From: Eledone cirrhosa
Taxonomy: Eukaryota
NCBI GenBank assembly: GCA_964016885.1
Contig: OZ024740.1
Span: 127,348,001-127,412,000, forward strand
Length of the DNA stretch: 64,000 bases
Direction: 5' to 3'
Shown: piece by piece, positions 9,212-54,366 of the stretch
Position numbering within the stretch: the first letter of the stretch is position 1
How the letters are laid out: each line of letters starts with the position of its first letter
Program-made: the position numbers and the translations under genes
Notes under the pieces: generated by a model
Databases searched by the model: none
What the model was told of the DNA's origin: nothing
Seen by the model: only the letters and a program-made list of their open reading frames with translations

Positions 9212-9285
<74 letters not shown>

Positions 9286-9448
9286 AATTAATATATCTAC
9301 CGACATATGTATACAGATGCATACCTATGCCAGCAGATATATATGTTTTGTCTTAGTAACTTTGTGGTTCTATGCAGGGGAATGCAGAACAATTATATGA
9401 AAGACGTAAATAAGAAAGTTATGAAAATTGACTTATTACTAAAATTTC

Positions 9449-9528
9449 ACTCCAACTAATTAGTTTCTGTAAGGGGATAAATACAGTTATGTAATATCTG
9501 TAGAGAAGCCTTGCGTCATCAGGGAGTC
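9449..9528 (-). ncRNA. type I hammerhead ribozyme (inverted copy)
   Basis: reverse complement of 9701-9780. Confidence 0.8.
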
Positions 9529-9700
9529 TATTCTCAGCTAAGCTACCAGGCAGTGAATTTTCAGTGGCTAGGAATCTAGGCCCACTCGCTTTTTTCGCTT
9601 TTTTCGCTTTTTTCGCTTTTTTCGCTTTTTTCCATCCACTGAATTATTGTTATATAAGTTTCCAGTGTGCCCGCATTGCCTGGTAGCTTAGCTGAGAATC

Positions 9701-9780
9701 GACTCCCTGATGACGTAAGGCTTCTCTACAGATATTACATAACTGTATTTATCCCCTTACAGAAACTAATTAGTTGGAGT
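9701..9780 (+). ncRNA. type I hammerhead ribozyme
   Basis: ACTCC-CTGATGA-cGTAAGG..CCTTACa-GAAA-CTAATTAG-TT-GGAGT. Confidence 0.85.
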
Positions 9781-10229
9781 GAAATTTTAGTAATAAGTCA
9801 ATTTTCATAACTTTCTTATTTACGTCTTTCATATAATTGTTCTGCATTCCCCTGCATAGAACCACAAAGTTACTAAGACAAAACATATATATCTGCTGAC
9901 ATAGGTATGCATCTGTATACATATGTCGGTAGATATATCAATTCTTTATAATCATCTCCAAATTATTTGTAGAGCAAAATTTGCCAAATTACTACTGTGA
10001 CTGATAGTAGTGGCTAGGCTCTGTCTTAATAGCACCCCCACTCCAAGCTGGTTAACCTCAGTGTCACGTCATTGATTCTTTTGAATTTGCCACTTGACCA
10101 AGAAGGCAGTGAATTTTTAGTGGCTTGGAATCTAGCCCCACTCGCCTTTTTCGCTTTTTTCCATCCACTGAATTATTGTTATATAAGTTTCCAGTGTCCC
10201 CGCATTGCCTGGTAGCTTAGCTGAGAATC

Positions 10230-10309
10230 GACTCCCTGATGACGTAAGGCTTCTCTACAGATATTACATAACTGTATTTACCCCCTTACGGAAACTAATT
10301 AGTTGGAGT
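10230..10309 (+). ncRNA. type I hammerhead ribozyme
   Basis: ACTCC-CTGATGA-CGTAAGG..CCTTACG-GAAA-CTAATTAG-TT-GGAGT; all three stems form. Confidence 0.88.
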
Positions 10310-10356
10310 GAAATTTTAGTAAGTAAGTCAATTTTCATAACTTTCTTATTTACGTC

Positions 10357-10615
<259 letters not shown>

Positions 10616-22480: not shown

Positions 22481-22652
22481 ATAATCTTATACCTATATAT
22501 ATATATATTTATAAGGAATTTATATCTAGTAACATTTATATACACACAGATGCATATCAATGCTAGCAAATATATAGGTTTTCTCTTATTAACATTGTGG
22601 TTCAATGCATGCGGAGAGTCCTCGCTATGCCTGGAGACTTACACGGAAAAAG

Positions 22653-22735
22653 ACTTTCCTGATGACGGAATGATTTTCTATATGTTTCTTCGGAAAATAT
22701 ATTTACTCCATTCCAGAAACTAATTAGTTGGAAGT
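22653..22735 (+). ncRNA. type I hammerhead ribozyme
   Basis: ACTTTC-CTGATGA-cGGAATG..CATTCCa-GAAA-CTAATTAG-TT-GGAAGT. Confidence 0.85.
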
Positions 22736-23177
22736 GATTTTTTAGTAAGTAAGTTAATTTTATAATTTTCTTATTTTACGTCTCTCATATTATTGTTCTG
22801 CAACCCCATGCATTGAACCACAATGTTAATAAGGCAAAACCTATATATTTGCTAGCATTGATATGCATCTGTGTGTATATAAATGTTACTAGATATAAAT
22901 TCCTTATAATTATCTCCAATTCATTTGTCGAGCAATATTTGGCCATGACTGCTACTATGGTAGTAGGCTGGCCGCTGTCTTATTAACCACTCGCTTTCCA
23001 CTGATTGACCTCCATGTCACGTGATTGATTCTTTTTGAATTTGCCACAGACGTAGAGGCAGTGATTTTCTCAATGGCTAGGAATCCAGTCCACGCTTAGC
23101 TATTTCCTTTCCACTGAATTATTTTTTAAATAAGTTTCCAGAGTCCTCGCTATGCCTGGAGACTTACACGGAAAAAG

Positions 23178-23259
23178 ACTTTCCTGATGACGGAATGATT
23201 TTCTATATGTTTCTTCGGAAAATATATTTACTCCATTCCAAAACTAATTAGTTGGAAGT
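23178..23259 (+). ncRNA. hammerhead copy lacking G12 (probably inactive)
   Basis: same as 22653-22735 but cattcca-aaac replaces cattcca-gaaac. Confidence 0.65.
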
Positions 23260-23480
23260 GATTTTTTAGTAAGTAAGTTAATTTTATAATTTTCTTATTT
23301 TACGTCTCTCATATATATATATTTATATATATATATATAATAAGGATTTGACGGAGCCAGCATATTTATCAATGCCAGGATCGGTTATATCTCAGCGTAC
23401 TCAATAGGTAATGTAGGATACATTACCAGAGTATACACATAGTTATTCGCTTCAATACAACTCACATAAAATTGGTAGTT

Positions 23481-24587: not shown

Positions 24588-24591
<4 letters not shown>

Positions 24592-25082
24592 ACAGCTAGA
24601 CATCATCAAAAGATAATTCATTCCGAGTCCTTACAAATGTTTCAACAGTAGTTATACAGCCTAGTCATGCTATGTGTAATTGATAGTTAATAATTATTTA
24701 ATTCTCCAATAACTTCCTTTAAGAAATACAAAGGTATTTACATTTTTACCATTCTGCTCTGAGGAAATGGTAGTCACAGCATTTGAAAATTGAGTTTCTG
24801 CAATCAAATAATTATTAATTATCAATTGAACATAGCATGACTGGGCTGTATAACTACTGTTGAAACATTTGTAAGCACTCGGAACAAGTTACCTTTTTAT
24901 GATGACAACTTGTTATTATTCATTCTTTATCTACACTCCGGAATAGAGAAGGATCATAAACTGAACTTTCGCGACTATTCTTCCATAACTCATTGAGTAA
25001 CCCCTCACCGTACGTCAACTCTATCTAGTGTAGTAATTAACCATTACTGCATTCAGGATAACCCTAAGCATTTATTGCATAA

Positions 25083-25085
<3 letters not shown>
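24588..25085 (+). mobile_element. fold-back pLTR-like element with tail, in (TA)n
   Basis: 24588-24700 is inverted relative to 24808-24920; tail to 25085. Confidence 0.8.
24755..24877 (+). ncRNA. type I HHR with ~95-nt stem II domain
   Basis: TGCT-CTGAGGA-AATGGTAGT...ACTACTGTT-GAAA-CATTTG-TA-AGCA. Confidence 0.78.
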
Positions 25086-25179
<94 letters not shown>

Positions 25180-25355
25180 TTATACATTAACAGAGAAAGC
25201 ATTAAGCAAAAGTCCGACCGACTTCCGTCTCACCCACCAAACATTAGGATATACCTTAGTATAATCCCAATTATACGTTTCGGGTGCTAACTATACCTAT
25301 TTTGCAAATAGCCAGTTGTACTATTTTCTATGAGACAATTAAATACATCCCTCTT

Positions 25356-25477
25356 TCCAAACAATCGTTTCATTATAAATTTTCTACAAGTTAGGAAAAT
25401 AATGTCCAGGTTATGTAGAAGCCTACACATAGTCTATAGGAATATATGTAGGTGGGCACTTATAAATCATCAGTGGA
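25356..25477 (-). ncRNA. type I HHR with long stem II
   Basis: TCCA-CTGATGA-tTTATAAg...tTTATAAt-GAAA-CGATTG-TT-TGGA. Confidence 0.78.
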
Positions 25478-26074
25478 TGCCCAACAATATCGATATAAAC
25501 AAAACCCCTACCCATATTAACATTCGGCGAAGGTACCCGTCAGTGTTAGAGTGACCGCCACATTTGAAATTCCAGCAGTCTCACAAAGAGAAATCTCACA
25601 CCGTCACCAAGCGGGAAGGGAAGGTCATTGCAAAACATAAAATAATAAAATAATATGCACGCAGGTCAATTAATTCTGTCAAGAACTTTAACCATGCGTG
25701 AAGAACTCAATTGGATATAAAAAAATAAATATATGCCAGTATTATTTATACATGAATATAGGTATTTTCTCAGGCTAAAAACAGAGACAAGATACCGGAA
25801 AAACAATCAATATTTCATACAAAAAATAAATAAAGAAAATCATGCCTAGAAATATCTAGAAATGTTCAGCTCTGGCCAAATCAAGAGTATAATATTTAAC
25901 ACATTAACAGAGAAAGCTTTAAGCAATACTCCGACCGACTTCCGTCTCACTCAACAACCATTAGGATATACCTTAGTATAATCCCAATTATAGGTTTCGG
26001 GTGCTAACTATACCTATTTTGAGGATAGCCAGTTGTATTATTTTATATGAGACATAATTAAATACATCCCTCTT

Positions 26075-26196
26075 TCCAAACGATCGTTTCATTATAAGTT
26101 TTCTACAAGTAGGGAAAATAATGTCCAGGTTATGTATAAGCCTACACATAGTCTATAGCAATATATGCAAGTGGGTACTTATAAATCATCAGTGGA
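26075..26196 (-). ncRNA. type I HHR with long stem II
   Basis: TCCA-CTGATGA-tTTATAAGT...ACTTATAAt-GAAA-CGATCG-TT-TGGA. Confidence 0.82.
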
Positions 26197-26240
26197 TGCC
26201 CAACAATATCGATATAAAAAAAAAACCCACATATATATAT

Positions 26241-27113: not shown

Positions 27114-27216
<103 letters not shown>

Positions 27217-27393
27217 GTTATTAGGAGTATTCCAAAGCTTGGTAGAACAAGTTGTGAGGAAAGTTCTCAACATACGTTAAGGTGACTCGACAGGTTGGTA
27301 GGGATTCTGTAGTGGAAACACGAACAAACGAGGAGTGTAATCAGAGAAGAGAAATAGGACGAAGGTAAAGAGTTACAAAAGAATTTAATCCAC

Positions 27394-27494
27394 GTATTAA
27401 CAATTGTTTCATCAGAATTTCAGTCCATTATTGCTACACTATGTTATAATAGGCAATCAAGAAAGATACTGTAGCATCCGAATTTTCGAAATAC
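27394..27494 (-). ncRNA. variant HHR (U3-C4...A8 core)
   Basis: reverse complement of 30658-30758. Confidence 0.6.
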
Positions 27495-27573
27495 AAAGTT
27501 GGAATGACCTTAGGAAATGAAATAAGGGGTAGTAGTGTAAGATAGAGGAACAGAGAGAGAGAGGGGCAAAAGA

Positions 27574-27640
<67 letters not shown>

Positions 27641-27894
27641 GATAGAGGTAGGGAGAGAAAGAGAAAGAGATAGTGTGGTGTGAGAGGATTTGTAAGGGAG
27701 GGGGAGGAGGCTTGTGTGCTAAAAGTTGTGATGAGTAGAGGGAGAGAGAAGGAAGATAGAATTTTAAGAGGCATTTGGAAGTGGACAGGCGAAAGTCTTA
27801 CCAGAGAACAGATGAAGGAAGAAAGTATTAAATTTCATATATAGTCTATTTTTAGGGGTGTAGAATTGTTTTTAGGGTAGAAAAATAGGTAGTG

Positions 27895-30226
27895 TTAGGA
27901 TTTGGTTGAAGGTTTGAAGTGTGAGAATTTCGCTTTCAGTTTATGCTGGCAAAAAATTGACCTTTCAATTTTGTTGTTAAGTAGTTGGTGGCTTGAGCTT
28001 AGGATATGGAAGAGCTCATTATTACACAACGGGCACGTTTTCATCCCACTCCGGTATGGAGGAGCATATGAGAGTTTGGTCCATTTAAGGGTGTATTGTC
28101 GGTTACTCCCTTTTAAGTGCCAAATTTTGTCGGCGAGAGTCGTTACGCAACGGTGGTGCTTTATTGCGTAACGATGCGTGTACCAACGAGTTTTGAAGGT
28201 GTTTGCAGTGCTGCCAATGTAGTGCTAGGTTTGGTTGCCCGACTCAACCGAGCACCTGTACACTAGGTTTGATTGCAAACATTCGTTATTCAATGGACAA
28301 GTCTCTGGAAGGTGGCAATTACAATTTATGTTATGGGCAGTGTTGGAGTTATAGGTGGGCTGGGATGTGTGTGTGAGTGTGTTTTGTGCATACTGATTGT
28401 TAGTGGGTGGTTGGGTATTAGGTGTATTATTGTGTTGAGTGATTGGGGTGTTGTTGTTACGGAGTCTTTTGGCGTTGAGCATCTTAATGTGTGCGTCTAG
28501 GTTTGGTGCAGTGGAATAAGATAGTCTAATTGTTTTGGTATTAAGTATACTACTATATTTATGTGAATTTGGAAAGTGTTTTTTTATAATTTTGTAGAAT
28601 GTGGAAGGTAAGTTAGAGCTAATAGAAGAGTTAAAAATAGGATTATACCAAATGTAAGATCTACTCCGTGTTCTGTTTTGCTTTGATGTTGCTGTTGTAT
28701 TTGTGGTGTGGTTAGTATTAGGGGGTCTAGGTGCGTGTGTGCGGGTGTTTGTGGGGCGTTTGGCGTATCTGTGGTTATGTGTTTTATGGTTGTGTGGGTC
28801 CATGTATTCTAGTTTGTCGGTGTGGCCAGCCCGTTCTAATGCAGTGTTGTAGTATTCAGCGTGTTGATCGAATATTTGTTGGTTAGATGAGAGGCGGGAT
28901 ATTCTAAGTGATATACTATGTGGCACGGACCTTATAATAGATAGTGGGTGGTTAGAGCTAGTGTGGATGTAGGTGAGGTTCTCATTGTTTTTGTGAAAGG
29001 GTGTGATAATTTGGGTGTTGAGGTTGAAGGTGGCATCTAGGAAGTTAACTACTTTGGTACTATATTCGTAGGTGATTTTAAGGCATAGGCTATCTAGGGT
29101 TCTTCTAATGCTCTTACGGGTTCGTTCTATGTTTTGTTTATTCATGTTTTTAACTAATAGGAGAGCGTCATCTCTATATATTACGCCTTGAAGGTAACTA
29201 ACTTTATTATGTAAGGTGTGGGCTATGTATATACCAACAATATCCGTAACTTGTGCTGAGTCATTAGCACACATAGTTATGTCAAAGTTATCTATTCTAT
29301 CCTTACGTATCCAAAAGTTATTTTCAAATTTAATTATCATCTTTCTAGCTGCTAGGATAATGTTTATTTCGTCGTCGGTTAAGTCAGAGTTGGCTTTCGC
29401 AAATTCTAGTGCCTTGTTTAGAGTATCGGGTGATATGGAGGAGTAATAGTCATTAATGTCGAATTGTATAAAGTTAGAGGTATTTTTGTTATCTATACTA
29501 TTAAACCATTTAATTGTGTCGCTAGTATTGTCCCAAAGTTTAATAACTAGTTTATTCCTTAATTGTATTATTATTCTATCTAAAATATGCTTGCTAATTT
29601 TACCTATGTCTGACTTAGATGGGCATATTAATCTAATAGTGGGTTTATCTAGGAAATCTAATTTGTGGTTCTTAAGATTAAAGGTGGGGGTGCAAGTTGT
29701 CATGGGCTCAGTTCTATCTTCAAGTTCTAGACTTTTGACAATATGGTGTGCTTGTTTGTTGATGTTAAGTAGTGCTTTATTATTGGTTTTCTTATATTGT
29801 TTATGTAATTCCTTTCGTATAAGGTCGTGGTAAGTATTAATGTCCATTGTGTATACGTTAGATGTTTTATCCGCTTTGACAATAATCCCGTTAGTGGTGC
29901 GCAGCTTGTTTAGAAAGGTATCAATGTCTTTATGAAGCTTGTTGGTTTTGAACTTCCTATATTTAGTATTCATGACCATTTTATGTAAGTCCTGTTCGAA
30001 GGCGTCCAATTAGAGGGTTAGTGGGTCGGTTTTTACAGGAGTTGAACCCATATGTATTCTTTCCAGAGTTCGCGGTATAATCCTTACGTCCTTTGTCGAA
30101 GTGGAATGTTTTCCATCTGACGCGGCGTATGAAATCATTGGTGCGCTGGATCGTTCCAAGAGTGTATTCCTTCCTTTTGGGTAAAGGTATATTCTTTAGG
30201 GACATACCGATGTAATGTTTTTCCAT
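27895..30226 (-). pseudogene. Penelope RT + GIY-YIG endonuclease polyprotein (about 775 aa; one frameshift near 30012, one TAG at 28225)
   Basis: MSLKNIPLP, KADKTSN, FIQFDINDYYSSI, FDITM..NDSAQVTDIVG, YRDD, VNFLD, SNHP, CNC..CPL..C, LVYRC..HYIGST..FKTRW..H, CPLCN.E, FCQHK. Confidence 0.93.
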
Positions 30227-30657
30227 GTCCAAGGCGTAAGTTGAAGTGGTGGCTCAACCAGATAGGAGCATAAATTCAGTTATTAGGAGTATTCCAAAGC
30301 TTGGTAGAACAAGTTGTGAGGAAAGTTCTCAACATACGTTAAGGTGACTCGACAGGTTGGTAGGGATTCTGTAGTGGTAACACGAACAACCGAGGAGTGT
30401 AATCAAAGAAGAGAAATATGACGAAGGTAAACAGTTACAAAATAATTTAATCCCTCTACTCATCACAACTTTTAGCACACAACCCTCTTCCCCCTCCCTT
30501 ACAAATCCTCTCACGCCACACTATCTCTTTCTCTTTCTCTCCCTACCTCTATCCCTTTTCTCTCTCTCTCTCTCCCTCTCTTTTGCCTCTCTCTCTCTCT
30601 GTTACTCTATCTTACACTACTACCCCTTATTTCATTTCCTAAGGTCATTCCAACTTT

Positions 30658-30758
30658 GTATTTCGAAAATTCGGATGCTACAGTATCTTTCTTGATTGCC
30701 TATTATAACATAGTGTAGCAATAATGGACTGAAATTCTGATGAAACAATTGTTAATAC
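30658..30758 (+). ncRNA. variant HHR (U3-C4...A8 core)
   Basis: GTATT-TCGAAAA-tTCGGA...TCTGAt-GAAA-CAATTG-TT-AATAC. Confidence 0.62.
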
Positions 30759-30974
30759 GTGGATTAAATTCTTGTGTAACTATTTACCTTCGTCCTATTT
30801 CTCTTCTTTGGTATATATATATATATACATATATACATACACATGCATATACACACACATACACATACATACATACATACATACATACATACATACATAC
30901 ATACATACATACATACATACATACATACATACATACATGCAAGTATCTATTTATGGACAAATATATAAGTATGT

Positions 30975-33879: not shown

Positions 33880-33953
<74 letters not shown>

Positions 33954-34007
33954 TAAAAAAATAATGAATAAAACAATGAAACAGTTCCTTATATTAAACA
34001 AAAAAAG

Positions 34008-34162
34008 TTCATTATTTAACGATCGTTTCTAGGATATATATGTGTTAGAATTGGCATGCATATTCAACAGATCTATGTACAAAATTATACAAAATTATAC
34101 AAACTATCAAGATTAAATATACATACCAAACACACATATATGCCGTCTTCAGAAATAATGAA
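34008..34162 (-). ncRNA. type I HHR (inverted copy)
   Basis: reverse complement of 38322-38476. Confidence 0.82.
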
Positions 34163-34765
34163 ATATATTTATTGATAATAACAACAATTCAAAATTTCAG
34201 GTCCGTTTGGGAACAGAGTTCAAATTGACCAATCAAAATACAAAAAATTTTATGCAGTTTGGTGTGTGTATATACATGTAATTAACTTCGTACACATATT
34301 TATATAAAGATATATGCTCACATGCATACGCATGCCAAAAAGATGTATGCAAATACAAACATTCAAGGCTAATGTCTCTGTAAGTTTATAATCCACAGAT
34401 AAAATGCGTATAGACACATAAATATGAAATAAATGTATACACACATTCATATACTCACACATATACGTACACTCACACACACGCGCGCGTATATGCATAA
34501 ACATACACATAATTACGAACATACATACACACACACACCCCCACACACATATATATGTGCATATAGTATTATCATAAGCATATGGACATTAATGCACGCA
34601 CATAAACACTGCCACACACATTTAGATCAAGATACAGAAATTAGGTGGGAGGGGGGGAGAGGTCAGTATTCAACGGTTTCGGCAGACTGCTTATTTATAG
34701 ATGTATCTATAAACTTAGAAATAAAAAGAAAAGAAAAAGAAAAAAGAAAAAAGAAATATATCAAG

Positions 34766-34812
<47 letters not shown>

Positions 34813-35438
34813 CTACACATACAACACACACACACACACATATATAAACATATACATATATATATATACACATATATACACACATACATATATATATACA
34901 CACACATATACACATATATACACACACATATATACACACACATATATATATATACAAACACATATACATACACACACATATATATATATACAAACAAGCA
35001 AAATATAAAGTATACATCGATATACATACATATAGACATATAAATAAATACACACGCATACACACACATACATATACATACATATACATACACATATATA
35101 TAAACACATACATATACATACATATACATACACATACCATATAAATACACATACACATACACAGACGCATACATATAGAGACACATACATATACACATAT
35201 AAATACATAGACACATACATACATAAACACATATATATATATATATATATATTTTTTTTACACACATATACACATACACGCATACATACATATATATATA
35301 TATACACACATATACATATACATATATATATATACATATATACACATACACATACACATATACACACATATATATATATATATATACATTCACAACACTC
35401 GTATATATATACACACTCATACATATACACACATATAC

Positions 35439-35471
<33 letters not shown>

Positions 35472-35614
35472 CATACATACATATATATATATATATACAT
35501 ATATATACAGTCACATCTACATACATATATATATATATATAAAAATACACTCATATATATACACACATACACATACATACCCACATATAAATATATATAT
35601 ATACATAAATATAT

Positions 35615-35653
<39 letters not shown>

Positions 35654-35685
35654 TACATATATATATATATATACATATATACATA

Positions 35686-35727
<42 letters not shown>

Positions 35728-35851
35728 CACACACATACATACACATATACACACATACATATATAGTCACACACACACACCTACACATACATACACATAC
35801 ACATATATAAAGATATATATACACACATACACACACACACATATATAATAA

Positions 35852-35884
<33 letters not shown>

Positions 35885-36188
35885 TATACATATACATACA
35901 TATATACATACATACATACACACACATACATATATATACACACATATACATACACACATACACACATACATACATACACACACATACATACACACACATA
36001 CATACTCATACATAGACATAGATATATATTCACACACACATACGCACTTACATATACGCATATATACAAATACATACGCATCCATATATGCGTATATACA
36101 TACAAACACCACTACACTCTCACACAACTCAGACATACAAAGAAAAAGGTATATACATATACATATATACACACATAAATAGAGATAC

Positions 36189-36261
<73 letters not shown>

Positions 36262-36387
36262 CACATACATATACATACACACACATATACACACATACAT
36301 ATATAGTCACACACACACACCTACACATACATACACATACACACATATAAAGATATATATACACACATACACACACATACATATATA

Positions 36388-36426
<39 letters not shown>

Positions 36427-36687
36427 TACATACATATACATACATATATACATACATACATACACATACATACATATATATACACACATATACATACACA
36501 CATACACACGTACATACATACACACACACATACATACACACACATACATACTCATACATAGACATAGATATATATTCACACACACATACGCACTTACATA
36601 TACGCATATATACAAATATATACGCATCCATATATCCGTATATACATACAAACACCACTACACTATATATGTGTATGTATGTGTGTG

Positions 36688-36768
<81 letters not shown>

Positions 36769-36789
36769 ATATATATATATATGTATGTA

Positions 36790-36820
<31 letters not shown>

Positions 36821-36959
36821 ATATATTTATGTATATATATATATTTATATGCGGGTATGTATGTGTATGTGTGTATATATATGAGTGTATTTTTATATAT
36901 ATATATATATGTATGTAGATGTGACTGTATATATATGTATATATATATATATATGTATG

Positions 36960-37000
<41 letters not shown>

Positions 37001-37186
37001 GTATATGTGTGTATATGTATGAGTGTGTATATATATACGAGTGTTGTGAATGTATATATATATATATATATATATGTGTGTATATGTGTATGTGTATGTG
37101 TATATATGTATATATATATATATATGTATATGTATATGTGTGTATATATATATATATGTATGTATGCGTGTATGTGTATATGTGTG

Positions 37187-37217
<31 letters not shown>

Positions 37218-37641
37218 GTGTTTATGTATGTATGTGTCTATGTATTTATATGTGTATATGTATGTGTCTCTATATGTATGCGTCTGTGTATGTGTATGTG
37301 TATTTATATGGTATGTGTATGTATATGTATGTATATGTATGTGTTTATATATATGTGTATGTATATGTATGTATATGTATGTGTGTGTATGCGTGTGTAT
37401 TTATTTATATGTCTATATGTATGTATATCGATGTATACTTTATATTTTGCTTGTTTGTATATATATATATGTGTGTGTATGTATATGTGTGTGTATATAT
37501 ATATATGTGTGTGTATATATGTGTGTGTATATATGTGTATATGTGTGTGTATATATATATGTATGTGTGTATATATGTGTATATATATATGTATATGTTT
37601 ATATATGTTTATATATGTGTGTGTGTGTGTTGTATGTGTAG

Positions 37642-37718
<77 letters not shown>

Positions 37719-38321
37719 CTTGATATATTTCTTTTTTCTTTTTTCTTTTTCTTTTCTTTTTATTTCTAAGTTTATAGATACATCTATAAATAAGCAGTCT
37801 GCCGAAACCGTTGAATACTGACCTCTCCCCCCCTCCCACCTAATTTCTGTATCTTGATCTAAATGTGTGTGGCAGTGTTTATGTGCGTGCATTAATGTCC
37901 ATATGCTTATGATAATACTATATGCACATATATATGTGTGTGGGGGTGTGTGTGTGTATGTATGTTCGTAATTATGTGTATGTTTATGCATATACGCGCG
38001 CGTGTGTGTGAGTGTACGTATATGTGTGAGTATATGAATGTGTGTATACATTTATTTCATATTTATGTGTCTATACGCATTTTATCTGTGGATTATAAAC
38101 TTACAGAGACATTAGCCTTGAATGTTTGTATTTGCATACATCTTTTTGGCATGCGTATGCATGTGAGCATATATCTTTATATAAATATGTGTACGAAGTT
38201 AATTACATGTATATACACACACCAAACTGCATAAAATTTTTTGTATTTTGATTGGTCAATTTGAACTCTGTTCCCAAACGGACCTGAAATTTTGAATTGT
38301 TGTTATTATCAATAAATATAA

Positions 38322-38476
38322 TTCATTATTTCTGAAGACGGCATATATGTGTGTTTGGTATGTATATTTAATCTTGATAGTTTGTATAATTTTGTATAAT
38401 TTTGTACATAGATCTGTTGAATATGCATGCCAATTCTAACACATATATATCCTAGAAACGATCGTTAAATAATGAA
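38322..38476 (+). ncRNA. type I HHR with 10-bp stem I and ~115-nt hairpin stem II
   Basis: TTCATTATTT-CTGAAGA-cGGcATATATGTGT...ACACATATATatCCta-GAAA-CGATCG-TT-AAATAATGAA. Confidence 0.85.
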
Positions 38477-38670
38477 CTTTTTTTGTTTAATATAAGGAAC
38501 TGTTTCATTGTTTTATTCATTATTTTTTTAATATTTTATCTTGACTCTGTATTCCGTTTATCTTTCACCGAAAGTGATTTTTCATTGCATCTCTTCTTTC
38601 CATGATATCCGGACTACATTGAGTTCTTCATACGGATTGGACACTACCGTAAACTCTTGGTAGATTTATC

Positions 38671-39913: not shown

Positions 39914-40816
39914 AATTTTTTTCCAATTTGTAGAAAACTTATAATGAAACGATCGTTTGGAAAGAGAGATGTATTTAATTATGTCTCATATAAAATAATA
40001 CAACTGGCTATCCGCAAAATACGTATAGTTAGCACACCAAACGTATAATTGGGATTATACTAAGGTATATCCTAATGTTTGTTGAGTGAGACGGAAGCTG
40101 GTAGGAGTATTGCTTAAAGCTTTGTCTGTTAATGTGTTAAATATTATACTCTTGATTTGGCCAGAGATGAATATTTCCAGATACTCTTTTAGGTATGACT
40201 TTCTTTATTTATTCTTTGTATGAAATATTGATTGTTTTTCCGGTATCTTGTCTCTTTTTTTAGCCTGAGAAAATACCTATATTCATGTATAAATAATACA
40301 GGCATATATTTATTTTTTTATATCCAATTGAGTTCTTCACGCATGGTTAAAATTATTGAAAGAATTAATTGACCTGCGTGCATATTATTTTATTCTTTTA
40401 TGTTTTGCGATGACCTCCCCTTCCCGCTTGGTGACGGTGTGAGATTTCTCATTGTAAGACTGCTTGAATTTCAAATTTGGCTGTCAGTCTAACACTGACG
40501 GGTACTCGCTGACTATTAATATTGGTAAAGTATTTCTTTATAGAGATATTGTCGGGCATCCACTGATGATTTATAAGTACCCACCTACATATATTCCTAT
40601 GGGCTATGTGTAGGCTTCTACAGAACCTGGACATTATTTTCCCAATTTGTAGAAAACTTATAATGAAACGATCATTTGGAAAGAGAGATCTATTTAATTA
40701 TGTCTCATATAACATAATACAACTGGCTATCCGCAAAATACGTATAGTTAGCACCCCAAAGTATAAATGGGATTATACTAAGGTATATCCTAATGTTTGT
40801 TGAGTGAGACGGAAGT
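39914..40816 (+). mobile_element. second copy of the 719-nt HHR tandem family
   Basis: gaaacgatc at 39946 and 40665 (719 apart); reverse-complement homolog of 25175-26230. Confidence 0.85.
40559..40680 (+). ncRNA. type I HHR with long stem II
   Basis: TCCA-CTGATGA-tTTATAAGT...ACTTATAAt-GAAA-CGATCA-TT-TGGA (stem III G to A change). Confidence 0.72.
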
Positions 40817-41137
40817 GGTTAAACGACTTGCAGTGAAGGACCCCTAGCCTTTGTCAAGGCATTCTTCTAGGAGAACGCAAATAAAAAAAACTGGGACATA
40901 TCCGATATAAATCCTGCGGCTCAGTTGTTACCTATGATGTTGATCTTTTCTTATTTTCGGGTTATAGCTACTGTCGCTCAGAATTAATTAATAATTGTTA
41001 ATAATGGTATATCGTGCAATGGTCATACTCGATAACGAGGGGGCGGCCATCACATATGTATATTTATATGTGTATTTAATGGTATGTATATGTGTATATA
41101 AGTGTGCATATATGTATGTACATGATGTATGTACATG

Positions 41138-41187
<50 letters not shown>

Positions 41188-41755
41188 CATGTACATACAT
41201 ATCTATATAAATACATACATGTACATACATGTACATACATATATGTACACTTATATACACATATACATACCTCTAAATACACATATAACTATACTAATGT
41301 GATGGCCGCCTCCTCGTTATCGAGTATGGCCATTGCACGATATACCATTATTAATAATTATTAATTAATTCTGAGCGACAGTAGCTATAACCCGAAAATA
41401 AGAAAAGATCAACATCATAGGTAACAACTGAGCCGCAGGATTTATATAGGATATATCCCAGTTTCTTGAGTTGCCTTCTCCTAGAAGAACGGCTTGACAA
41501 AGGTTAGGGGTCTTTCACTCCAAGTCGTTTAACCGCGCGGTTATATACATATTTACACACATTTGGATGGCCATTGACTCTATGATTCTTCCGCCCTTTG
41601 TCGGATTTTGTTTTCTGCCCTGGAGGGTGTCCAAAATGACCCTCCTATCCAAGTAAACGTGGTGGGGTTGCCGGTTTAGTCGCCGTCGACATGAACAAGC
41701 TACAGGTTGCACTGGGTTACATGTTACCAGTAGCACTCAAGGGTGATTCGACAAA
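40817..41755. repeat. fold-back element (about 330-bp arms around a TA centre) with ~220-bp tail
   Basis: 40817-41140 is inverted relative to 41180-41534. Confidence 0.85.
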
Positions 41756-42540: not shown

Positions 42541-45358
42541 TAACTTTGATAACTTTGATAACTGTGATAGGTTTCGGCCAGTATTGGCCCAGGCCATGTC
42601 TAACTTAATAGCACCCCCTGGCGAAGTCTTACAAATTAGTGTTTGGGCACCATGTCCCACTCGAGCAGAGAGTTATTGTTTACGGAGACATATCCGGTTG
42701 TAGGAGGCTTATTTGGGATTTATTGATGGAATTCTTGAACTTGATGAGATCTGTGTCTGCTTTGATGTGTTTTGGTGTAATGCTAAAGAGTGCAGGGCCA
42801 ATTGAGGTGAAATAATTATGCTGTAATGTTGCTATCAGATGCGAGTGAGATTTTTGTCGTGGGCGGATATCACGGGGCCCAAGCCTTGGATGTACATTAA
42901 AGGTGATGGCAACATCATTTGGGAAAAGCTGATGGAATATTTTCCACATCATGCAGATAATGTAGCGCTCAGGGCGACGTTGGAGAGAATAAAGTGAGCT
43001 TTTCTAATCGAGTCAAGACCGTCATGTCATCTTTCTTTTTGTAATTGAAATTTGGGGTGCTTCAACTTTCATGATACTTTGTTTCGTGTGGGGAGACCAC
43101 AGTGGACAACAGTATTCAAAGCGGGGTCGGGCAAAAGTGGAGAAGAGAAGGATAACAATGTGGATATCTCTCGACTGGAAAGTTCTGAGAATGCATGAAA
43201 AAATTCTGCGGGACATATCAACTTTGTTGTTTTTATGAGTGGCCCAGCTTATGTTGTTGTCCACAATTACTCCCAGGTCTCTGATGTTATTGGATGCCAC
43301 TAGAGTTTCACCCGAAGGAAGAGAGTATGGTAGTTTCAGGGCATCCTTTTTTTCCAAAGTGGATTAATTCAAACTTATCCTCAATCAACAGCATATTATT
43401 CATTTCTGTCCATTGGATACCAGCCAGTTGGTCTGACTGAAAGCAAGCCCAGTCCGGCACCTCATTGATGACGCTTTGGAGCTTGGAATCAACTGCGAAG
43501 ATATTTATGTTGCTGTGCTTGATGATGTCAGTAATGTCATTAATGTAGATGATGAGAAGAAGTGGGCCCAACACAGTGCCTTGTGGGACGCCACTGCTGA
43601 CTTTGGCAGGATTTGATTTTACTCCTTCGACTACAACATATTGGGTTCTGCCTGTCAGGAAACATTTGATCCACTGTAGTAACCTTTCAGAGACACCAAC
43701 ATTGGATAGTTTTTCAGTAGAATCTTATGATCAACCCTGTCGAAGGCCTTGCTGAAATCAAGGTAGATAACATCGGTGCTGGAGCCCTCTCCCAAGGCTC
43801 TCAAAAAATCGTCAAGGTGATGCAGGAGCTGCGTGAGGAGGTCCCTTCCATTACGGCACCCATGTTGGTTGGAGTTCAGCAGACCGTTACTTTCAAGTAA
43901 GTGGGTTATTCGTGATCTCACCACCCTCTGAAATACATTGATAATATGAGAGTTGAGTGAGATCGGACGGTAGTTCACCGCAAGGGACTTATTTCCCTAT
44001 TTGAAGACTGGGACCACGGACTGGGACAGAAAGTTATCAGGAATATATCCAGTGTCCAGTGAGTTCCTCCACAGATTAGCAAGAGGAGATGCAATTTGGT
44101 GTCGAGACACCTTCAGGACCCAAGCAGGGAACCTGTCGGGGCCTGCTGCTGAATTGTTTTTAATTTCGTTTATTGCCGCTAAGACATCAGTGGCACCAAA
44201 CGTTATGTCTGATATAGTGTGTTGGGGATTAACATCACTGACACGGCCAAGATCGGCCATATAAGGATTGCTGAAAACAGACCAGTATTGTTTCTGCAGT
44301 ATCTCGCCCATGGTTTTGGTATTGTCTTGGAGTGTGCCATTTTCATGAATTAGGGGGCCAACAGTGGGGACGGTGACCTTGTGTTTTTTAGCAAATGAAA
44401 AGAACACTTTGGGGTTGAGTTGAGTTTGATTTTCTCAATGGCCCACCTCCGTCCAGATATTCTCTGGTTATTGATGGTGGTCATCATGCATTGCTGGAGG
44501 TTATATTTGTTTGACTCAAGCAGGGCGATTGTCATCGAATGTATGTGTTGCTGTTGGCAGTATTTTAGTATGTTAATTGTTTTGTTTGTTCTTTTTATTT
44601 TTGTGATAATTGTTTTTCTGTTTCGAGGGATACTGCACTTGGTGTTGTTCACAGCTTTTGGTGGGGTGTGTTTTGTACATATATTTGTGACAGTGTTTAC
44701 AAAGATCTGCAAAGATGTTTTGATGTTGGTGGAAGTGTGTGCGTGTGTAAAAGACCAGTCGACATGTGATAGTTCGTTCATAATTGCATCCCAGTTGGCA
44801 TTGTAGAGATCCATGTTATCAAATGGGTGGGGTGGAAAGAGAACCCAGGGATTAGCTTTCGGCCGGTGGAATCTCAGGTTACAAAAAACCATGTCATGGT
44901 CTGAGAGTAGGGCTTTTTCCACTGTAATATTATGTATAGTGTTAGTGTGGTTACTAAACACTAGATCCAGAATGTTCTTCTGATGCCTCGTTGGTGCAAA
45001 GACAAGGTGGGACAAGAAAAACTCATTCATGAATTCAAGAAGTGACTCGACAGCTTCTTTGTCAGTGGTTGAGTTTGTGGTGCCTGGTTTCAAACTATAT
45101 GTAGACCACGACGCAAGGTAAAGTCTTCCATCAAAAGTGTGTTGCTAGAATGGCACTGTTTAATAAAGCATTTAATACTGTTGAGGCATTCTTTGAAGCA
45201 GATTATGGGTGTTTGTGGTGGCCTATAGAGCCCAACTAATGTCAGGTCATGGGCTTTATTGTGCACAGTGACTGATTCACAGTATCCATTAGAATACGTA
45301 AGGAAATCATGCAGGAAAATGGCAGTTCCCCCCTTCCTTCTGCCAACACGATCCGCAC

Positions 45359-47855: not shown

Positions 47856-49893
47856 TTAAGCTGGTCTAAAGTTCTCAAATTTGGTCGGCGTTTTATGCCG
47901 ACAAAAAATAGTTCTTTCAATTTTAATGTTAAGAAGGTTTTTATTGTAATTTAAAATTTGGAAAAGTTCCATATTACAGAGACCGCAGAGGGACATACCA
48001 ATTTGATAGGCCGTTGCTTTTGATAGCTTCGTCCAGCTGATTTTATATTCCATGTTTGCATCCTTGAGTTGCCAGATTTTATTGGCGAGAGTCGGTGTAT
48101 TTAAGAGGTTCCTGTTATTCATAGGGTGTCTATGGACGTACCACCTTTTCTTAAACTCCCCAGCTGTGGAGCCAATGTAATGCCATGCTAAGCTACCTGA
48201 ATTTATAGTACATAGGTATAATATATTTGTCTCTAGGAATCTATTTTGTAATAGGCATTTGTCAGCTAGATGGCAGTTACATTTAGATGCTTTTCTATTT
48301 GCCGGTTCTTTGATATGGTTTTGTAGGTTGCTATGTACGGATTGAGAGTTGGGTTTATTGATGTATTGTGGTGATGTGTGCTGACGTGTGTTTGGTTGTG
48401 ATGATGTTATATGCTTATGTTTTGTATTTGGTGTTATGGTACTTATTTGCGGCCTACTTGTATTATAAATTATTTTATAGTAAATTTTATGTATGTGCGA
48501 TTCTACTTCGTTGGCAGTGGAGTATGCTAGTTTGATAGTTTTTCTATTAAATATTTTATGATATTTATGAATTTTAGGGAAGTGTTTGTCAACCAAGTTG
48601 AAGAAAGTGTAAGGTAGTTTTGTTTTTATAGAGGAGTTAAACATTGGATTGAACCATAAGTAGTTTCTATTTCTGCATCTTCTAGAGTTATTAGTGGTCT
48701 TTATATTAGTATTCTGTTCAATTTATTTCCGTCCCTGTTGCCTAAATTATTAAAGAAGTTTGTAATCTTTTTTCTTAATCTTTCTGAGTTTTGATTATTT
48801 AAGTTTTTAGCTAAAAACAGTGTATCGTCTCTATAAATTCCTCCTTATAGGTTATCAAATTCCCTATGTAAAATATGTGCTATACAAATTCCGACAATGT
48901 CTGTAACTTGGGCTGAATCATTTGATCCCATAGTTATATCGAAGTTATTCTGTCTATTTTTTCGTTCCCAGTAACTATTGTCGAATCTATTGATTGTTCT
49001 TCTAGCAGCTAGTATTATTTTAATTTCGTCTGGTGAAAGGTCAGAGTTTTTTCGTGCAAAGGATAGTGTATTATTTGGGGTTACTGGAGAAATAGAATAG
49101 TAGTAGTCATTTATGTCAAATTGTATAAAGTCGAAAGATTCTCTATTGTCTAATTTATTAAACCAATCTATTGCTTCATTTGTGTTAGCCCAGAGCTGGA
49201 TTATTAGTTTTTTCTTTAATTTGTGATATTATTCTATCTAGTATAAACTTGCTAATTCTCCCTATATCTGATTTTGATAGACATATTAATCTCATAGTAG
49301 GGTTAGTTTCGAAGTTACATGTATGACCCTTCAGATTAAAAGTGGGTTTACAAGGGGTTAGAGGTTTGGTTGTATCAGATATTTTAAGTGTTTTTACTAT
49401 GTTAAGACCTCCCTTGTTAATGCTATTGAGTGTAGACTGTAGTTTTCTTGTATTTTTTATGTAATTCCCGGCGTATAAAGTTGTTGTATGTATTAAGGCT
49501 CATGGTGTATACATTTGATGTTTTGTCTGCCTTTACTATAATACCATTGGTGTTACGTAATTTTGTTAGTAGTGCATTGATGTCATTTTGCAGTTTGTTA
49601 TGATGTGTACGTTTTTTGAATTTAGTTTCTTTTATCATGTTCATGAGCTCAAGTTCAAAGGCATCAAGTTGTGGGTGGCTCGGTGGATTTTTGCAGGATC
49701 TAAACCCATACTTTTCACTGGTAGACCTCTTATTATTTATATCATTATTATTATGTCCTTTATCGTAATGATATGCTTTCCATATGATTCTACCGATAAA
49801 GTTATTAGTTCTATGTGTCATACCGAGCATATATTCATTATTTGTAGGTATAGGTATGTTTTTTAAGGACATTCCTATGTAGTGTCTTTCCAT
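47856..49893 (-). pseudogene. Penelope RT + GIY-YIG, frameshifted, with the thumb region deleted near 48740
   Basis: MERHYIGMSLKNIPIP, KADKTSN, FDITMGSNDSAQVTD, IYRDD, WHYIGSTAGEFKKRWYVH, CGLCNME, FCRHK. Confidence 0.92.
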
Positions 49894-50518
49894 GTTAGTG
49901 CCGTGCGTTAAATTAATTGCTCAACCTAATGGGATAAGGGATAACAAAATATCGTTATAGGTAATCCAGTTAGAGGTTGTGAATACTTCTTATTATGGAT
50001 AGTTTTAGCGTATGGCGTTGTTTGACTCAACAAGATATTTTCTTCGCACATTTTTATTTTTTACTTATTTATTTTCAAATTTTAACTTTTTCACATTTTG
50101 TACCATTTTGTATCACATTGGATGTAAATTATTTAGTTATTTATTTATATATTTATTTGTATTTACATTTATTCATGTATTAACGTTTATTCATTTATCG
50201 TTGATATCATTATTTTCACTCTATTTTTCTTTCTCTCCTACGATATTTTCCCTTATGCTTGTCTCTCCTCTTTCTACCATCATTTCTCCATATTTTTTCT
50301 TCTCTCTATATTTTTCTCTATATTCATTTCTCCTTTCTCCATTTCTTTCTCTTTTTGTTTTTGTTTTTCATTTTTCTTTTTCCTTTTCCTCTCTTTCTTT
50401 CCTTTATCTATCTCGATTTCTTTCTTTATTTTTTTTCTCTCGCTATCTTTATTATTAATATTATTATTGATGATGTAATTTGAATTTGTAAATTTGCCGG
50501 TTATATATACTTTTGGTA

Positions 50519-52277: not shown

Positions 52278-54185
52278 TAATCCTCATCGAGCCTTCTTTG
52301 TAATTTATTCTTCAAATTTATTATTATTACTATTATTACTATATATTTCTAGGGCGGGTAAAAACACCGAGATCCATGGACGAGTTCTGTCCAGCGGTCT
52401 CTGTCCCTCATTATCGCTGCCATGCCCTGCGTCTCCAACAGGACAGTGTTTGTCTTTAGGGCATCAACATACGTTAACATTGGTCTTCCTCTTCCAGTGT
52501 GTCCATGAGTTTCTTGGTGCGTGTCCAAGGCTCAGACCCGTACACACAGCACAGACTCCACTACAGCAATGAAGAGGCGGATTTTCAGGTCTTTATGAAG
52601 GTTCGACTTCCACACCGATCTCAAGCTGTGGCAAGCGGCCCAGGCTTTGCTCTTCCTCTCAACCACATCATCTTCCGTATTCCAAATCTTTGCTCCCAAA
52701 TACAGGAAGTTCTCAACCAATTCTAGCGGCTTCCCGCCTACATTAGTGATCCCCTCTAGTGTCCAAGTCCCAGATTGATTTCATTCTGGTGAGGGAAAAG
52801 TGGCGGAATATTGTTTTGAACACTGAACCATACAACTAAGTAGTACACTGGTAGTACACTTCAGTACACTGGGTAGTGACCATAGGCTTGTTATGAGTGA
52901 GTTCCGGTTGAGCTTAAGAAATAGCAAGGCTCAGTCCCGGGGAGCAATGTATAACTGGGGAGATTTCAAGGAAGATGATAAGCTACAGTAGAGGTTTAAG
53001 TGGAAATGAGGAACAGGTTCAGTGCTCTGTGTGGAGAGACAGAGGAGAGAGAGATTGAATGGACTGAGGAGAATGTGACGACGAGGTACGGGCACTTCAC
53101 CAAAGCAGTGGCGGAAGCAAGTGAGACCCTGGTGCCGAGGAGAAAGAACAAAAGGAAGCACGTCAGCTCTGCAGACTCAAATGTGTGTGCAGCCAGAGAA
53201 CACCTGAAAGCTGCCAAGGACAAATTCTATGCTGATCCTACGGAGGAGAGGATGGAAACTGTGAAGGTGATGAGGGAGGAACTTTGTACCGGTTACACTG
53301 AGGCCAGAGAGGAGGCACTGATAGAGAAGATCATAAGTGTGGAGAGAGCGGTTGACAGGTCTGGATGTAAGGGGAGCTGGATGATCATCAACGAGATCAC
53401 AGGGAGGAAGAGAAGGTGTTCAAGTCAGATCCAGGGAACAGGGCCCGATGATAGGAAGAGGAAATGGTTAGACCATTTTAGGACCCTACTAGGAGAGCCA
53501 CCCTCCACAGCCCAGAGCACTGGGGAGCTCTGACAGCTTTTTAAAGAACTGGATATTGAGACAGAGCCCTTCACCAGAGGGGAGCTTCAGAAAGCCAAGA
53601 AGATCAAGGAGGGCAAGGCTCATGGAGAAGATGGAGTGGGATCAGAGGTGATGAAGAGGTGTGATTTTGTAACCAGGCACTGGAGAAAGGAGTTGCCCCA
53701 AATCAGTGGAGGATCAGTAACATCGTTCCAGTGCCAAAGAAGGGAGATCTCTCTAATACGAACAACTACAGGGGGTGTCACTGACGTCACTTGTGGCAAA
53801 TACCCTCAACAGGATGGTTCTTAACAGGATCCAGCCTGAGATGGAGAAGAAGCTCAGGGACAACCAGAGCCGCTTCAGAGAGGGAGGATCAACCACGAGT
53901 CACATCCTGATGTTGAGGAGGATATTAGAGGGAGCTATAGCAAAGTGCCTTCCTGCGGTCATGGTTTTCATTGACTTTCGGAAGCCCTTTGATTCTGTGG
54001 ACCGTCACTGCCCGATGAAGATCTTACAGACTTATGGAATCCCCAAGAAGATAGTAGACCTGATATCACTGCTCTACACCAACACCAAAGCCCAAGTCAT
54101 TACACCTGGTGGGATGACTGAGTTCTTTGAGATACTGGCTGGAGTGCACCAGGGAGATACATTGGCTCCCTACCTTTTTATCACA
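52278..54185 (-). mobile_element. RTE LINE with 5' inversion (3' end on - at 52278-52760; internal ORF2 on + at 52760-54185)
   Basis: VENFLYLGAKI...KIRLFIAVVESVL on -; NRFSAL, NYRG.SLTS, FIDFRKPFDSV, GVHQGDTLAPYLF on +. Confidence 0.88.
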
Positions 54186-54366
54186 CATTCCTCCAAGTTA
54201 TCCCGGATAAACCTCCTACATACGGATATGTCTACGTAAACCAGAACTCTTTACTTCAGTAGGCCATGATATCCAAATCCCGATCTGAAAGACTTCGTTT
54301 GGTGGTGCTCTTAAGTAAGACATGGCTGGGTCCAATACTGACCGAAACCCGTCAATGCTATCAAAG

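What the first reader, a model, noticed from the sequence alone, without database searches (positions are those of the whole stretch)
25175..26230. Second ORF-less tandem HHR family with a 719-nt unit, at two loci
Seen: HHR cores 719 nt apart at 25467/26186 (-) and GAAA motifs at 39946/40665 (+, locus 39914-40816). The unit length is the same at both loci despite sequence divergence. The stem II insert is about 95 nt and no credible ORF is present. As I recall them, described animal non-LTR retrozyme monomers are usually shorter. Inference: a candidate large non-autonomous Penelope parasite or circRNA.
Basis: partly seen in the sequence, partly recalled or inferred. Interest (0 to 1): 0.78.

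Follow-up and report, generated by a model that had tools for sequence, protein, structure and literature searches.

The report
Ribozyme-bearing parasite of Penelope retrotransposons
This is one of about a thousand copies of a protein-less jumping sequence whose 719-base unit carries a predicted self-cutting RNA with an unusually large insert; it is likely copied into TA repeats by the enzymes of Penelope-type retrotransposons, and the ends of its copies suggest that the RNA is cut in the cell.

Summary
Observation confirmed at the stated coordinates, but the two loci are 92% identical copies of one dispersed family (737 exact hits of a 24-mer), so the equal unit length is expected, and locus 2 holds only one whole, damaged hammerhead. 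The family is a non-coding, head-to-tail element of the non-LTR retrozyme kind. 91 of 92 sampled terminal copies end about 187 nt after the predicted cut, on (TA)n, with variable 5' ends: the signature of Penelope-type internal initiation. No copy examined leads into an ORF. 719 nt is above the 170-400 nt of the 2020 description but inside the 51-972 bp of a 2026 preprint, so size is not new. Two points are less ordinary. The 95-nt stem II insert is a branched domain with compensatory changes, missed by Rfam, and coding Hydra-clade Penelope elements of this genome carry 72-81-nt inserts too. And 5' ends pile up just after the predicted cut and drop beyond it (20 of 81 against 1 of 61; sister families 8 of 54 against 0 of 46), a possible genomic record of cleavage in vivo. 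Transcription, cleavage and circles are untested; the mobilising family was not identified.

The parts
25176..26225 (-). Locus 1 insertion, 1.46 units: about 145 nt before the first cut, one whole 719-nt unit, then about 185 nt
   Evidence: L018
25360..26078 (-). 719-nt unit, cut to cut (u1 = 26078); 34% GC, no ORF
26075..26202 (-). Hammerhead 1 (type I): stem I UCCA/UGGA, core 26192-26186, 95-nt insert 26185-26091, GAAA from 26090, palindromic stem III ACGAUCGU, predicted cut between 26079 and 26078; insert hairpins carry several changes in this copy
25356..25483 (-). Hammerhead 2: core 25473-25467, stem III ACGAUUGU (one G-U), predicted cut between 25360 and 25359; insert folds as 7-8 bp stem II plus two hairpins
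25176..25359 (-). Terminal u1-u185 segment, the most conserved part between sister families (86% against 66% in the body); its 3' end is the inferred start of reverse transcription
25085..25175 (.). (TA)n tract at the 3' end, inferred insertion target
25947..25956 (-). 10-nt motif TGTTGAGTGA (u123), resembling a motif 107-134 nt after the cut in three coding families; post hoc, weak
39918..40816 (+). Locus 2 insertion, 1.25 units (u676 to u719, whole unit 39958-40676, u1-u141); 3' end lost against an inverted-repeat element starting at 40817
   Evidence: L001
40553..40680 (+). Only whole hammerhead of locus 2: core 40563-40569, GAAA at 40665, stem III broken (ACGAUCAU)
39918..39961 (+). 3' half only of the first hammerhead of locus 2 (GAAA at 39946, no CUGAUGA)

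Best explanation
The 719-nt unit is a non-coding, head-to-tail element of about a thousand dispersed copies that carries a predicted type I hammerhead with a branched 95-nt stem II and is likely mobilised in trans by a Penelope-like (probably Hydra-clade) reverse transcriptase/endonuclease. Shown: copies share a 3' end about 187 nt after the predicted cut, sit on (TA)n, are 5'-truncated, and read upstream across the cut into the previous unit. Inferred: a tandem copy is transcribed; two hammerheads pair through their palindromic stem III and cut part of the RNA; the borrowed enzyme nicks a (TA)n tract, starts cDNA internally at u187 and copies upstream; on cut RNA it runs off at u1 (short copies of 170-187 nt, or 890-906 nt one unit later), on uncut or religated RNA it reads through and writes a partial tandem, which restores two hammerheads in copies such as locus 1. 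Long arrays are rare and grew at least partly by DNA duplication.
For: 3' end: of the first 100 of 737 sites of a 24-mer near the end, 92 are terminal and 91 of these run into (TA)3 or more; sisters 64 of 65 (recounted by eye). Same geometry as internal initiation downstream of the hammerhead in the anole element (PMC11167929, parts 1-2 of 4 read). Head-to-tail: 27 of 30 internal-junction loci (of 122 sites) run on to the next hammerhead, 3 break off at u270, u497, u686; no pile-up of 5' ends at u188. One template per insertion: two subfamily markers agree within a locus in 58 of 66 comparisons, between loci in 54%. Fold under selection: sister families (units 689, 708, 759, 767 nt) keep core and stems, change stem III to ACGGCCGU (still a palindrome), use U, C or A but never G at the cut, and show three compensatory pairs in insert hairpin A; 95.6% of cells paired against 27-50% in slid controls. 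Helper present: intact 768-812-codon frames with RWK, DKT, YRDD, CxCx5C and C-terminal GIY-YIG-like motifs, as defined for the Hydra clade, which targets (TA)n; their terminal repeats hold hammerheads with 72-81-nt inserts and the U3-A8 core covariation described in PMC4209133; the window's own coding copy ends on (TA)n 186 nt after its cut. 5' edge: 20 of 81 copies stop in the 20 nt after the cut, 1 of 61 in the 20 nt before it (Fisher p 6e-5); sisters 8 of 54 against 0 of 46 (p 0.007).
Against: No parent found: u1-230 aligns no better than shuffles with ten post-cut regions, including five from coding families; no unit-to-element DNA match beyond low-complexity stretches; no protein remnant; two targeted patterns gave only one nested insertion, L186/L331. 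The 5' peak is not unique: other 20-nt windows reach 16% against 25% in the main family, and in the sisters the cut window ranks third (15% against 23% and 16%); 14 of the 20 ends lie at u11-u17, a TA-like stretch, so microhomology or stalling at the folded ribozyme could explain it. The main family has U.U instead of G10.1-C11.1 (G-C in 16 of 30 rows, all sisters), a 4-bp stem I and a U at the cut; in single-strand folding a competing UGGGC/GCCCA helix often beats stems I and II. In the 2026 preprint 8 of 9 tested dimers did not cleave. Only 3-4 families underlie the covariation, so it rests on few events; the measure counting pairs did not exceed shuffles (379 of 500).
Confidence: 0.8

Rival explanations
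1. Classical retrozyme cycle: double cleavage releases a 719-nt monomer that is ligated to a circle, and the circle is the main template, copied by rolling reverse transcription.
For: 61 of 92 terminal copies read through the cut and 9 exceed one unit; markers agree within loci; the circular unit folds somewhat better than 25 shuffles (z -2.6); circles are shown for coral, mussel and axolotl retrozymes (PMC7229834, discussion read).
Against: The one long array (about 8.8 units) is not star-like: units 1 and 4 differ by 1.2%, others by 3.5-7%, with rare alleles shared by subsets. Read-through is equally explained by uncut multimers. Not exclusive of the best explanation.
Confidence: 0.3
2. The unit is the terminal repeat or 3' UTR of a coding Penelope-like element, and the copies are its truncated ends.
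For: Coding elements here have the same hammerhead type, insert class and end geometry; one family copy abuts the start of such an ORF (L186); two similar candidates in other genomes were read this way by earlier agents (unchecked).
Against: Upstream of u188 every long copy continues into u187; 27 of 30 internal junctions continue into the unit; L186 has a TA tract between family end and ORF start and is 1 of 19 hits; no ORF homology. Only 30 of 122 junction sites were examined.
Confidence: 0.07
3. The hammerhead is a vestige; the element spreads on uncut RNA and the 5' peak comes from TA microhomology or structure-induced stalling.
For: Hammerhead mutants did not affect insertion in vitro and no RNA-seq ends were seen at the cut in the anole element; weak stems and competing fold; hot spots elsewhere.
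Against: Compensatory changes, palindrome-preserving change and no G at the cut across sisters; the hammerhead region is more conserved than the body (80% against 66%); 6 ends at u1-u7 lack TA microhomology and earlier TA-like sites (u31-u110) hold few ends.
Confidence: 0.2

Closest known systems
Non-LTR retrozymes of animals (PMC7229834; 10.64898/2026.07.22.740005)
   Same: Non-coding head-to-tail units with a type I hammerhead, low GC, many dispersed monomeric or partial copies and few multimers; proposed Penelope origin and mobilisation.
   Different: Unit about twice the 170-400 nt tested experimentally (but within 51-972 bp predicted); stem II carries a 95-nt branched insert; most copies are shorter than one unit with a fixed internal 3' end; expression and circles not shown.
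Minimal hammerheads of metazoan Penelope-like elements (PMC4209133)
   Same: Helix I of 4 bp, helix II of 7-8 bp, palindromic helix III needing a dimer, U3-A8 core variant in relatives.
   Different: Loop II replaced by a two-hairpin domain; possible 5-bp pseudoknot to the strand before stem I; U.U at 10.1-11.1 in the main family.
Hydra-clade Penelope-like elements (PMC8557442)
   Same: (TA)n target, partial tandems, inverted partial copy, hammerhead upstream of the copy's 3' end.
   Different: No ORF; no detectable sequence homology to the coding families tested.
Poseidon element of the green anole, PAc (PMC11167929)
   Same: Reverse transcription starts inside the RNA, downstream of the hammerhead cut, at AT-rich DNA.
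   Different: PAc is autonomous with two start sites about 90 nt after the cut; here one dominant end at 187 nt, and genomic copies show an edge at the cut that was not seen in PAc RNA-seq.

Membership tests
Type I hammerhead ribozyme | CUGANGA and GAAA cores, stems I-III, NUH cut site | tested here: met
   Both locus 1 copies; core invariant or nearly so in 30 aligned copies, stems I and II 99-100% paired. Locus 2 copy has a broken stem III.
Type I hammerhead ribozyme | Match to a curated model | tested here: not met
   No hammerhead family among Rfam matches at E up to 10; the 95-nt insert is the likely reason (inference).
Type I hammerhead ribozyme | Self-cleavage | not testable with these tools
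   Indirect only: 5' edge at the predicted cut.
Penelope minimal hammerhead | Helix I 4-5 bp, helix II 7-8 bp, palindromic helix III | tested here: met
   4 bp, 7-8 bp, ACGAUCGU/ACGGCCGU (definition).
Penelope minimal hammerhead | G10.1-C11.1 pair | tested here: inconclusive
   G-C in 16 of 30 rows (sisters), U.U in the window's family; U.U is tolerated according to PMC3088659 (passage).
Non-LTR retrozyme | Head-to-tail units each with a type I hammerhead | tested here: met
   Locus 1 has two whole hammerheads; array of about 8.8 units at G000:C5. Locus 2 alone does not meet it.
Non-LTR retrozyme | No protein coding; GC under 50% | tested here: met
   Longest frame 71 codons, 31-34% GC; no hit to a Hydra-clade protein profile above 2 bits.
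Non-LTR retrozyme | Monomer size | tested here: inconclusive
   Outside 170-400 nt, inside 51-972 bp.
Non-LTR retrozyme | Expressed as linear and circular monomer RNA | not testable with these tools
Non-LTR retrozyme | Long target-site duplications when present | not tested
   Insertions lie in (TA)n, which hides them.
Autonomous Penelope-like element (Hydra clade) | RT plus GIY-YIG ORF between terminal repeats | tested here: not met
Autonomous Penelope-like element (Hydra clade) | (TA)n targeting, partial tandem, inverted truncated copy | tested here: met
   91 of 92 ends on (TA)n; inverted partial copy upstream in L031.

The most novel reading that the evidence does not exclude
A class of hammerheads with 70-100-nt structured, sometimes branched stem II domains is the norm in this genome's Hydra-clade Penelope elements and their parasites and escapes standard searches; it cleaves in vivo during retrotransposition, and the 5' ends of genomic copies record that cut, showing linear cleaved RNA rather than circles as a main template. 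The UGGGC/GCCCA helix acts as a pseudoknot or an on/off switch.
Probability: 0.4. Interest if true: 0.68.

Novelty: new variant of a known kind. Interest (0 to 1): 0.48.

Why it matters
What hammerheads do in Penelope-like elements is stated as unclear in PMC8557442, and in the only reconstituted system cleavage was dispensable (PMC11167929). A family with about a thousand copies, a fixed initiation site and an edge of 5' ends at the predicted cut gives a direct way to test whether cleavage happens in the germ line and whether templates are linear or circular. Long-insert hammerheads missed by Rfam suggest that some elements scored as lacking the ribozyme may have it. As a repeat family it is otherwise ordinary.

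Tried and rejected
Rfam scans found only microsatellite-driven miRNA matches and no hammerhead. Run search: no RNA holder listed; one run of unknown kind (X1) holds family-like contigs and says nothing on expression. Pfam and PDB searches did not recognise the Hydra-type proteins (one GIY-YIG hint at E 0.024 on a fragment), so the clade call rests on motifs, without a tree. A weak tblastn match of the window's RT frame to the unit (E 0.048) was rejected after the profile search. L186 as the coding parent was rejected as a nested insertion. The uniform-rate test of the 5' peak (20 seen, 3.3 expected) overstates the case because hot spots exist; the edge test and window ranks are used instead. 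Whole-region folding of single copies is unconvincing (z 0.7, -2.1, -2.9) and the consensus fold recovers stem II and both hairpins but not stems I and III. The pseudoknot has 88.7% pairing and one double change only: not established. Earlier findings by place and by sequence: none.

Full report
Observation. The coordinates are right: cores at 25467-25473 and 26186-26192 (minus), GAAA at 39946 and 40665 (plus), both pairs 719 nt apart, 95 nt between core and GAAA. Locus 1 is 1.46 units with two whole hammerheads; locus 2 is 1.25 units, begins inside the insert and has one whole hammerhead with a broken stem III. The loci are 91.6% identical. Unit positions below count from the first base after the predicted cut (u1 = 26078, minus strand).

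Family. The window lies in a 3.0-Gb assembly. Exact patterns give 346 hits at the hammerhead's 3' half, 737 near the 3' end and 122 at the internal u187/u188 junction, with 0 for reversed controls. A recapture estimate is about 940 copies, a lower bound since the sample favours young copies (22 of 28). Copies differ from the column majority by 3.7% on average (117 rows). A degenerate pattern finds 576 sites of sister families; in 30 of them examined, units of 689, 708, 759 and 767 nt were seen, with the same 3' end in 26 or so and the same ribozyme. Against two sister units identity is 86% in u1-187, 80% in the ribozyme and 66% in the body.

Anatomy of insertions. Of the first 100 of 737 sites, 8 are internal and were dropped; 91 of 92 terminal copies run into (TA)n at about u187. 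Of the first 70 of 546 sister sites, 5 are internal and were dropped (3 of them misflagged by the script and removed by eye); 64 of 65 end on (TA)n. 5' ends vary, often in TA-like stretches, and upstream sequence always follows the unit across the cut. Of 30 internal-junction loci, 27 continue to the next hammerhead and 3 break off. An inverted partial copy lies upstream in L031. This is the structure described for Penelope-like elements (PMC8557442, passages and section 11) and matches internal initiation downstream of the hammerhead shown for the anole element (PMC11167929, parts 1-2 of 4).

Not a terminal repeat. No long copy leaves the unit at u188; the unit has no frame over 71 codons and no match to a profile of five Hydra-type proteins above 2 bits. 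A pattern asking for this ribozyme end followed by the typical ORF start returned 19 sites: 18 of a different coding family and one family copy separated from an ORF start by a TA tract; a second pattern returned that site alone. Only part of the sites was examined, so a rare coding form is not excluded.

The ribozyme. Stem I is 4 bp, stem II 7-8 bp, stem III the palindrome ACGAUCGU, as in the dimer-type minimal hammerheads of Penelope elements (PMC4209133, parts 1-2 of 4); the two locus 1 palindromes form a duplex of -13.9 kcal/mol with flanks. The insert folds as two hairpins on stem II. On 30 copies, 95.6% of cells pair, against 27-50% in slid controls; hairpin A has three pairs changed on both sides, and stem III switches to ACGGCCGU in 7 rows; the cut base is U, C or A. 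These changes trace to 3-4 families, so they are few events. A 5-bp helix between the strand before stem I and the start of the insert is possible (88.7% paired); pseudoknots between stems I and II are known (PMC3088659, passages), but in folding without pseudoknots this helix competes with the active fold. Rfam does not detect the motif.

The insert class is shared with coding elements. Intact frames of 768-812 codons (one 918 with a low-complexity tail) carry RWK, DKT, CxCx5C, CxxC and, in two of four, CxH motifs of the Hydra clade. Their repeats hold hammerheads with 75-81-nt inserts, cores CCGAAGA or UUGAAAA (the U3-A8 covariation), and the broken coding copy in this window (27214-30810) has a 72-nt insert and ends on (TA)n 186 nt after its cut. 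Other families with 84-101-nt inserts turned up in flanks. No sequence homology links the 719-nt family to any of them beyond a post hoc 10-nt motif, so the helper is inferred from target, geometry and ribozyme type.

5' ends and the cut. In the main family 20 of 81 copies that reach u20 stop within u1-u20, and 1 of 61 in the 20 nt before the cut (p 6e-5); in the sisters, an independent sample, 8 of 54 and 0 of 46 (p 0.007). One copy in each set begins exactly at u1. Against: other windows reach 16% in the main family and 23% in the sisters; most ends lie 10-16 nt inside the cut at a TA-like site; some ends are alignment breaks at indels (for example L230, L141 and the T-tract near u575). I read it as run-off from cleaved RNA with about 60% confidence. 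Two thirds of copies read through, from uncut multimers or circles. The single long array has one founder but a mosaic of shared alleles, pointing to later DNA duplication.

Comparison with print. Non-LTR retrozymes were described at 170-400 nt (PMC7229834, passages and discussion). A 2026 preprint gives 51-972 bp and a Penelope origin in vertebrates (supplements closed). Schistosome W elements with hammerheads are 333-428 bp (PMC8490949, passages and section 11). So neither size nor origin is new. Searches for long or branched stem II in natural hammerheads and for 5'-end footprints listed no paper describing either; I saw these as listings only. Lunse et al. 2017 on Penelope hammerhead variants was not held, and of the supplement of PMC8557442 I saw only search hits in the metadata file, which note split cores 35-50 nt apart in Naiads in the methods; the Hydra hammerhead annotations in file S2 were not seen and may already show long inserts. 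The host was not identified; a resemblance to octopod genomes is recalled, not tested.

Verdict. The size claim is weak, the circle untested. The long structured insert, shared with coding Hydra-clade elements, and the 5' edge at the cut are what deserve follow-up. New variant of a known kind; interest 0.48.

Noticed in passing
window 9283-10361 and 22509-23315: The first hammerhead family: 529-nt spacing (cores 9707, 10236), 48-nt insert, palindrome ACUAAUUAGU, upstream inverted partial copy and (TA)n ends; a 76% identical relative with a 50-nt insert at 22659.
   Followed up: partly
window 27214-30810 (minus): Broken coding Penelope-like element (594-codon RT frame 28225-30009, GIY-YIG-like frame 27895-28224) with terminal repeats, inverted upstream copy and a 72-nt-insert hammerhead (core UCGAAAA).
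   Followed up: partly
window 24589-25085 (plus): Another long-insert hammerhead (core CUGAGGA at 24759, 96-nt insert) with an inverted partial copy, ending 211 nt after its cut in the same (TA)n tract as locus 1, tail to tail.
   Followed up: partly
L201 703-3126; L204 717-3119; G000 hits: Many intact 800-812-codon Hydra-type ORFs, several with identical scores, suggesting a recently active family that Pfam and PDB searches do not recognise.
   Followed up: partly
unit u553-u582 (window about 25497-25526, minus): Second cluster of 5' ends just upstream of the ribozyme, also in copies longer than one unit; TA microhomology, T-tract or a transcription start are all possible.
   Followed up: no
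L013, L025, L056, L186: Family copies sit next to sister-family or coding Penelope copies in shared (TA)n tracts, often tail to tail.
   Followed up: partly
window 33945-38539: Large inverted repeat (877-nt arms, 99% complementary) around a 2.8-kb microsatellite-like core.
   Followed up: no
window 40817-41534: Inverted-repeat element (237-nt arms, 94%) abutting the truncated 3' end of locus 2.
   Followed up: no
window 60392-62476; 43022-45144; 53000-54239; 47856-49920; 420-794: Fragments of a Pif1-helicase element (Pfam Pif1_2B_dom; Helitron-like by recall), LINE-type RT pieces (RVT_1 at 53757) and further Penelope-like remnants.
   Followed up: no
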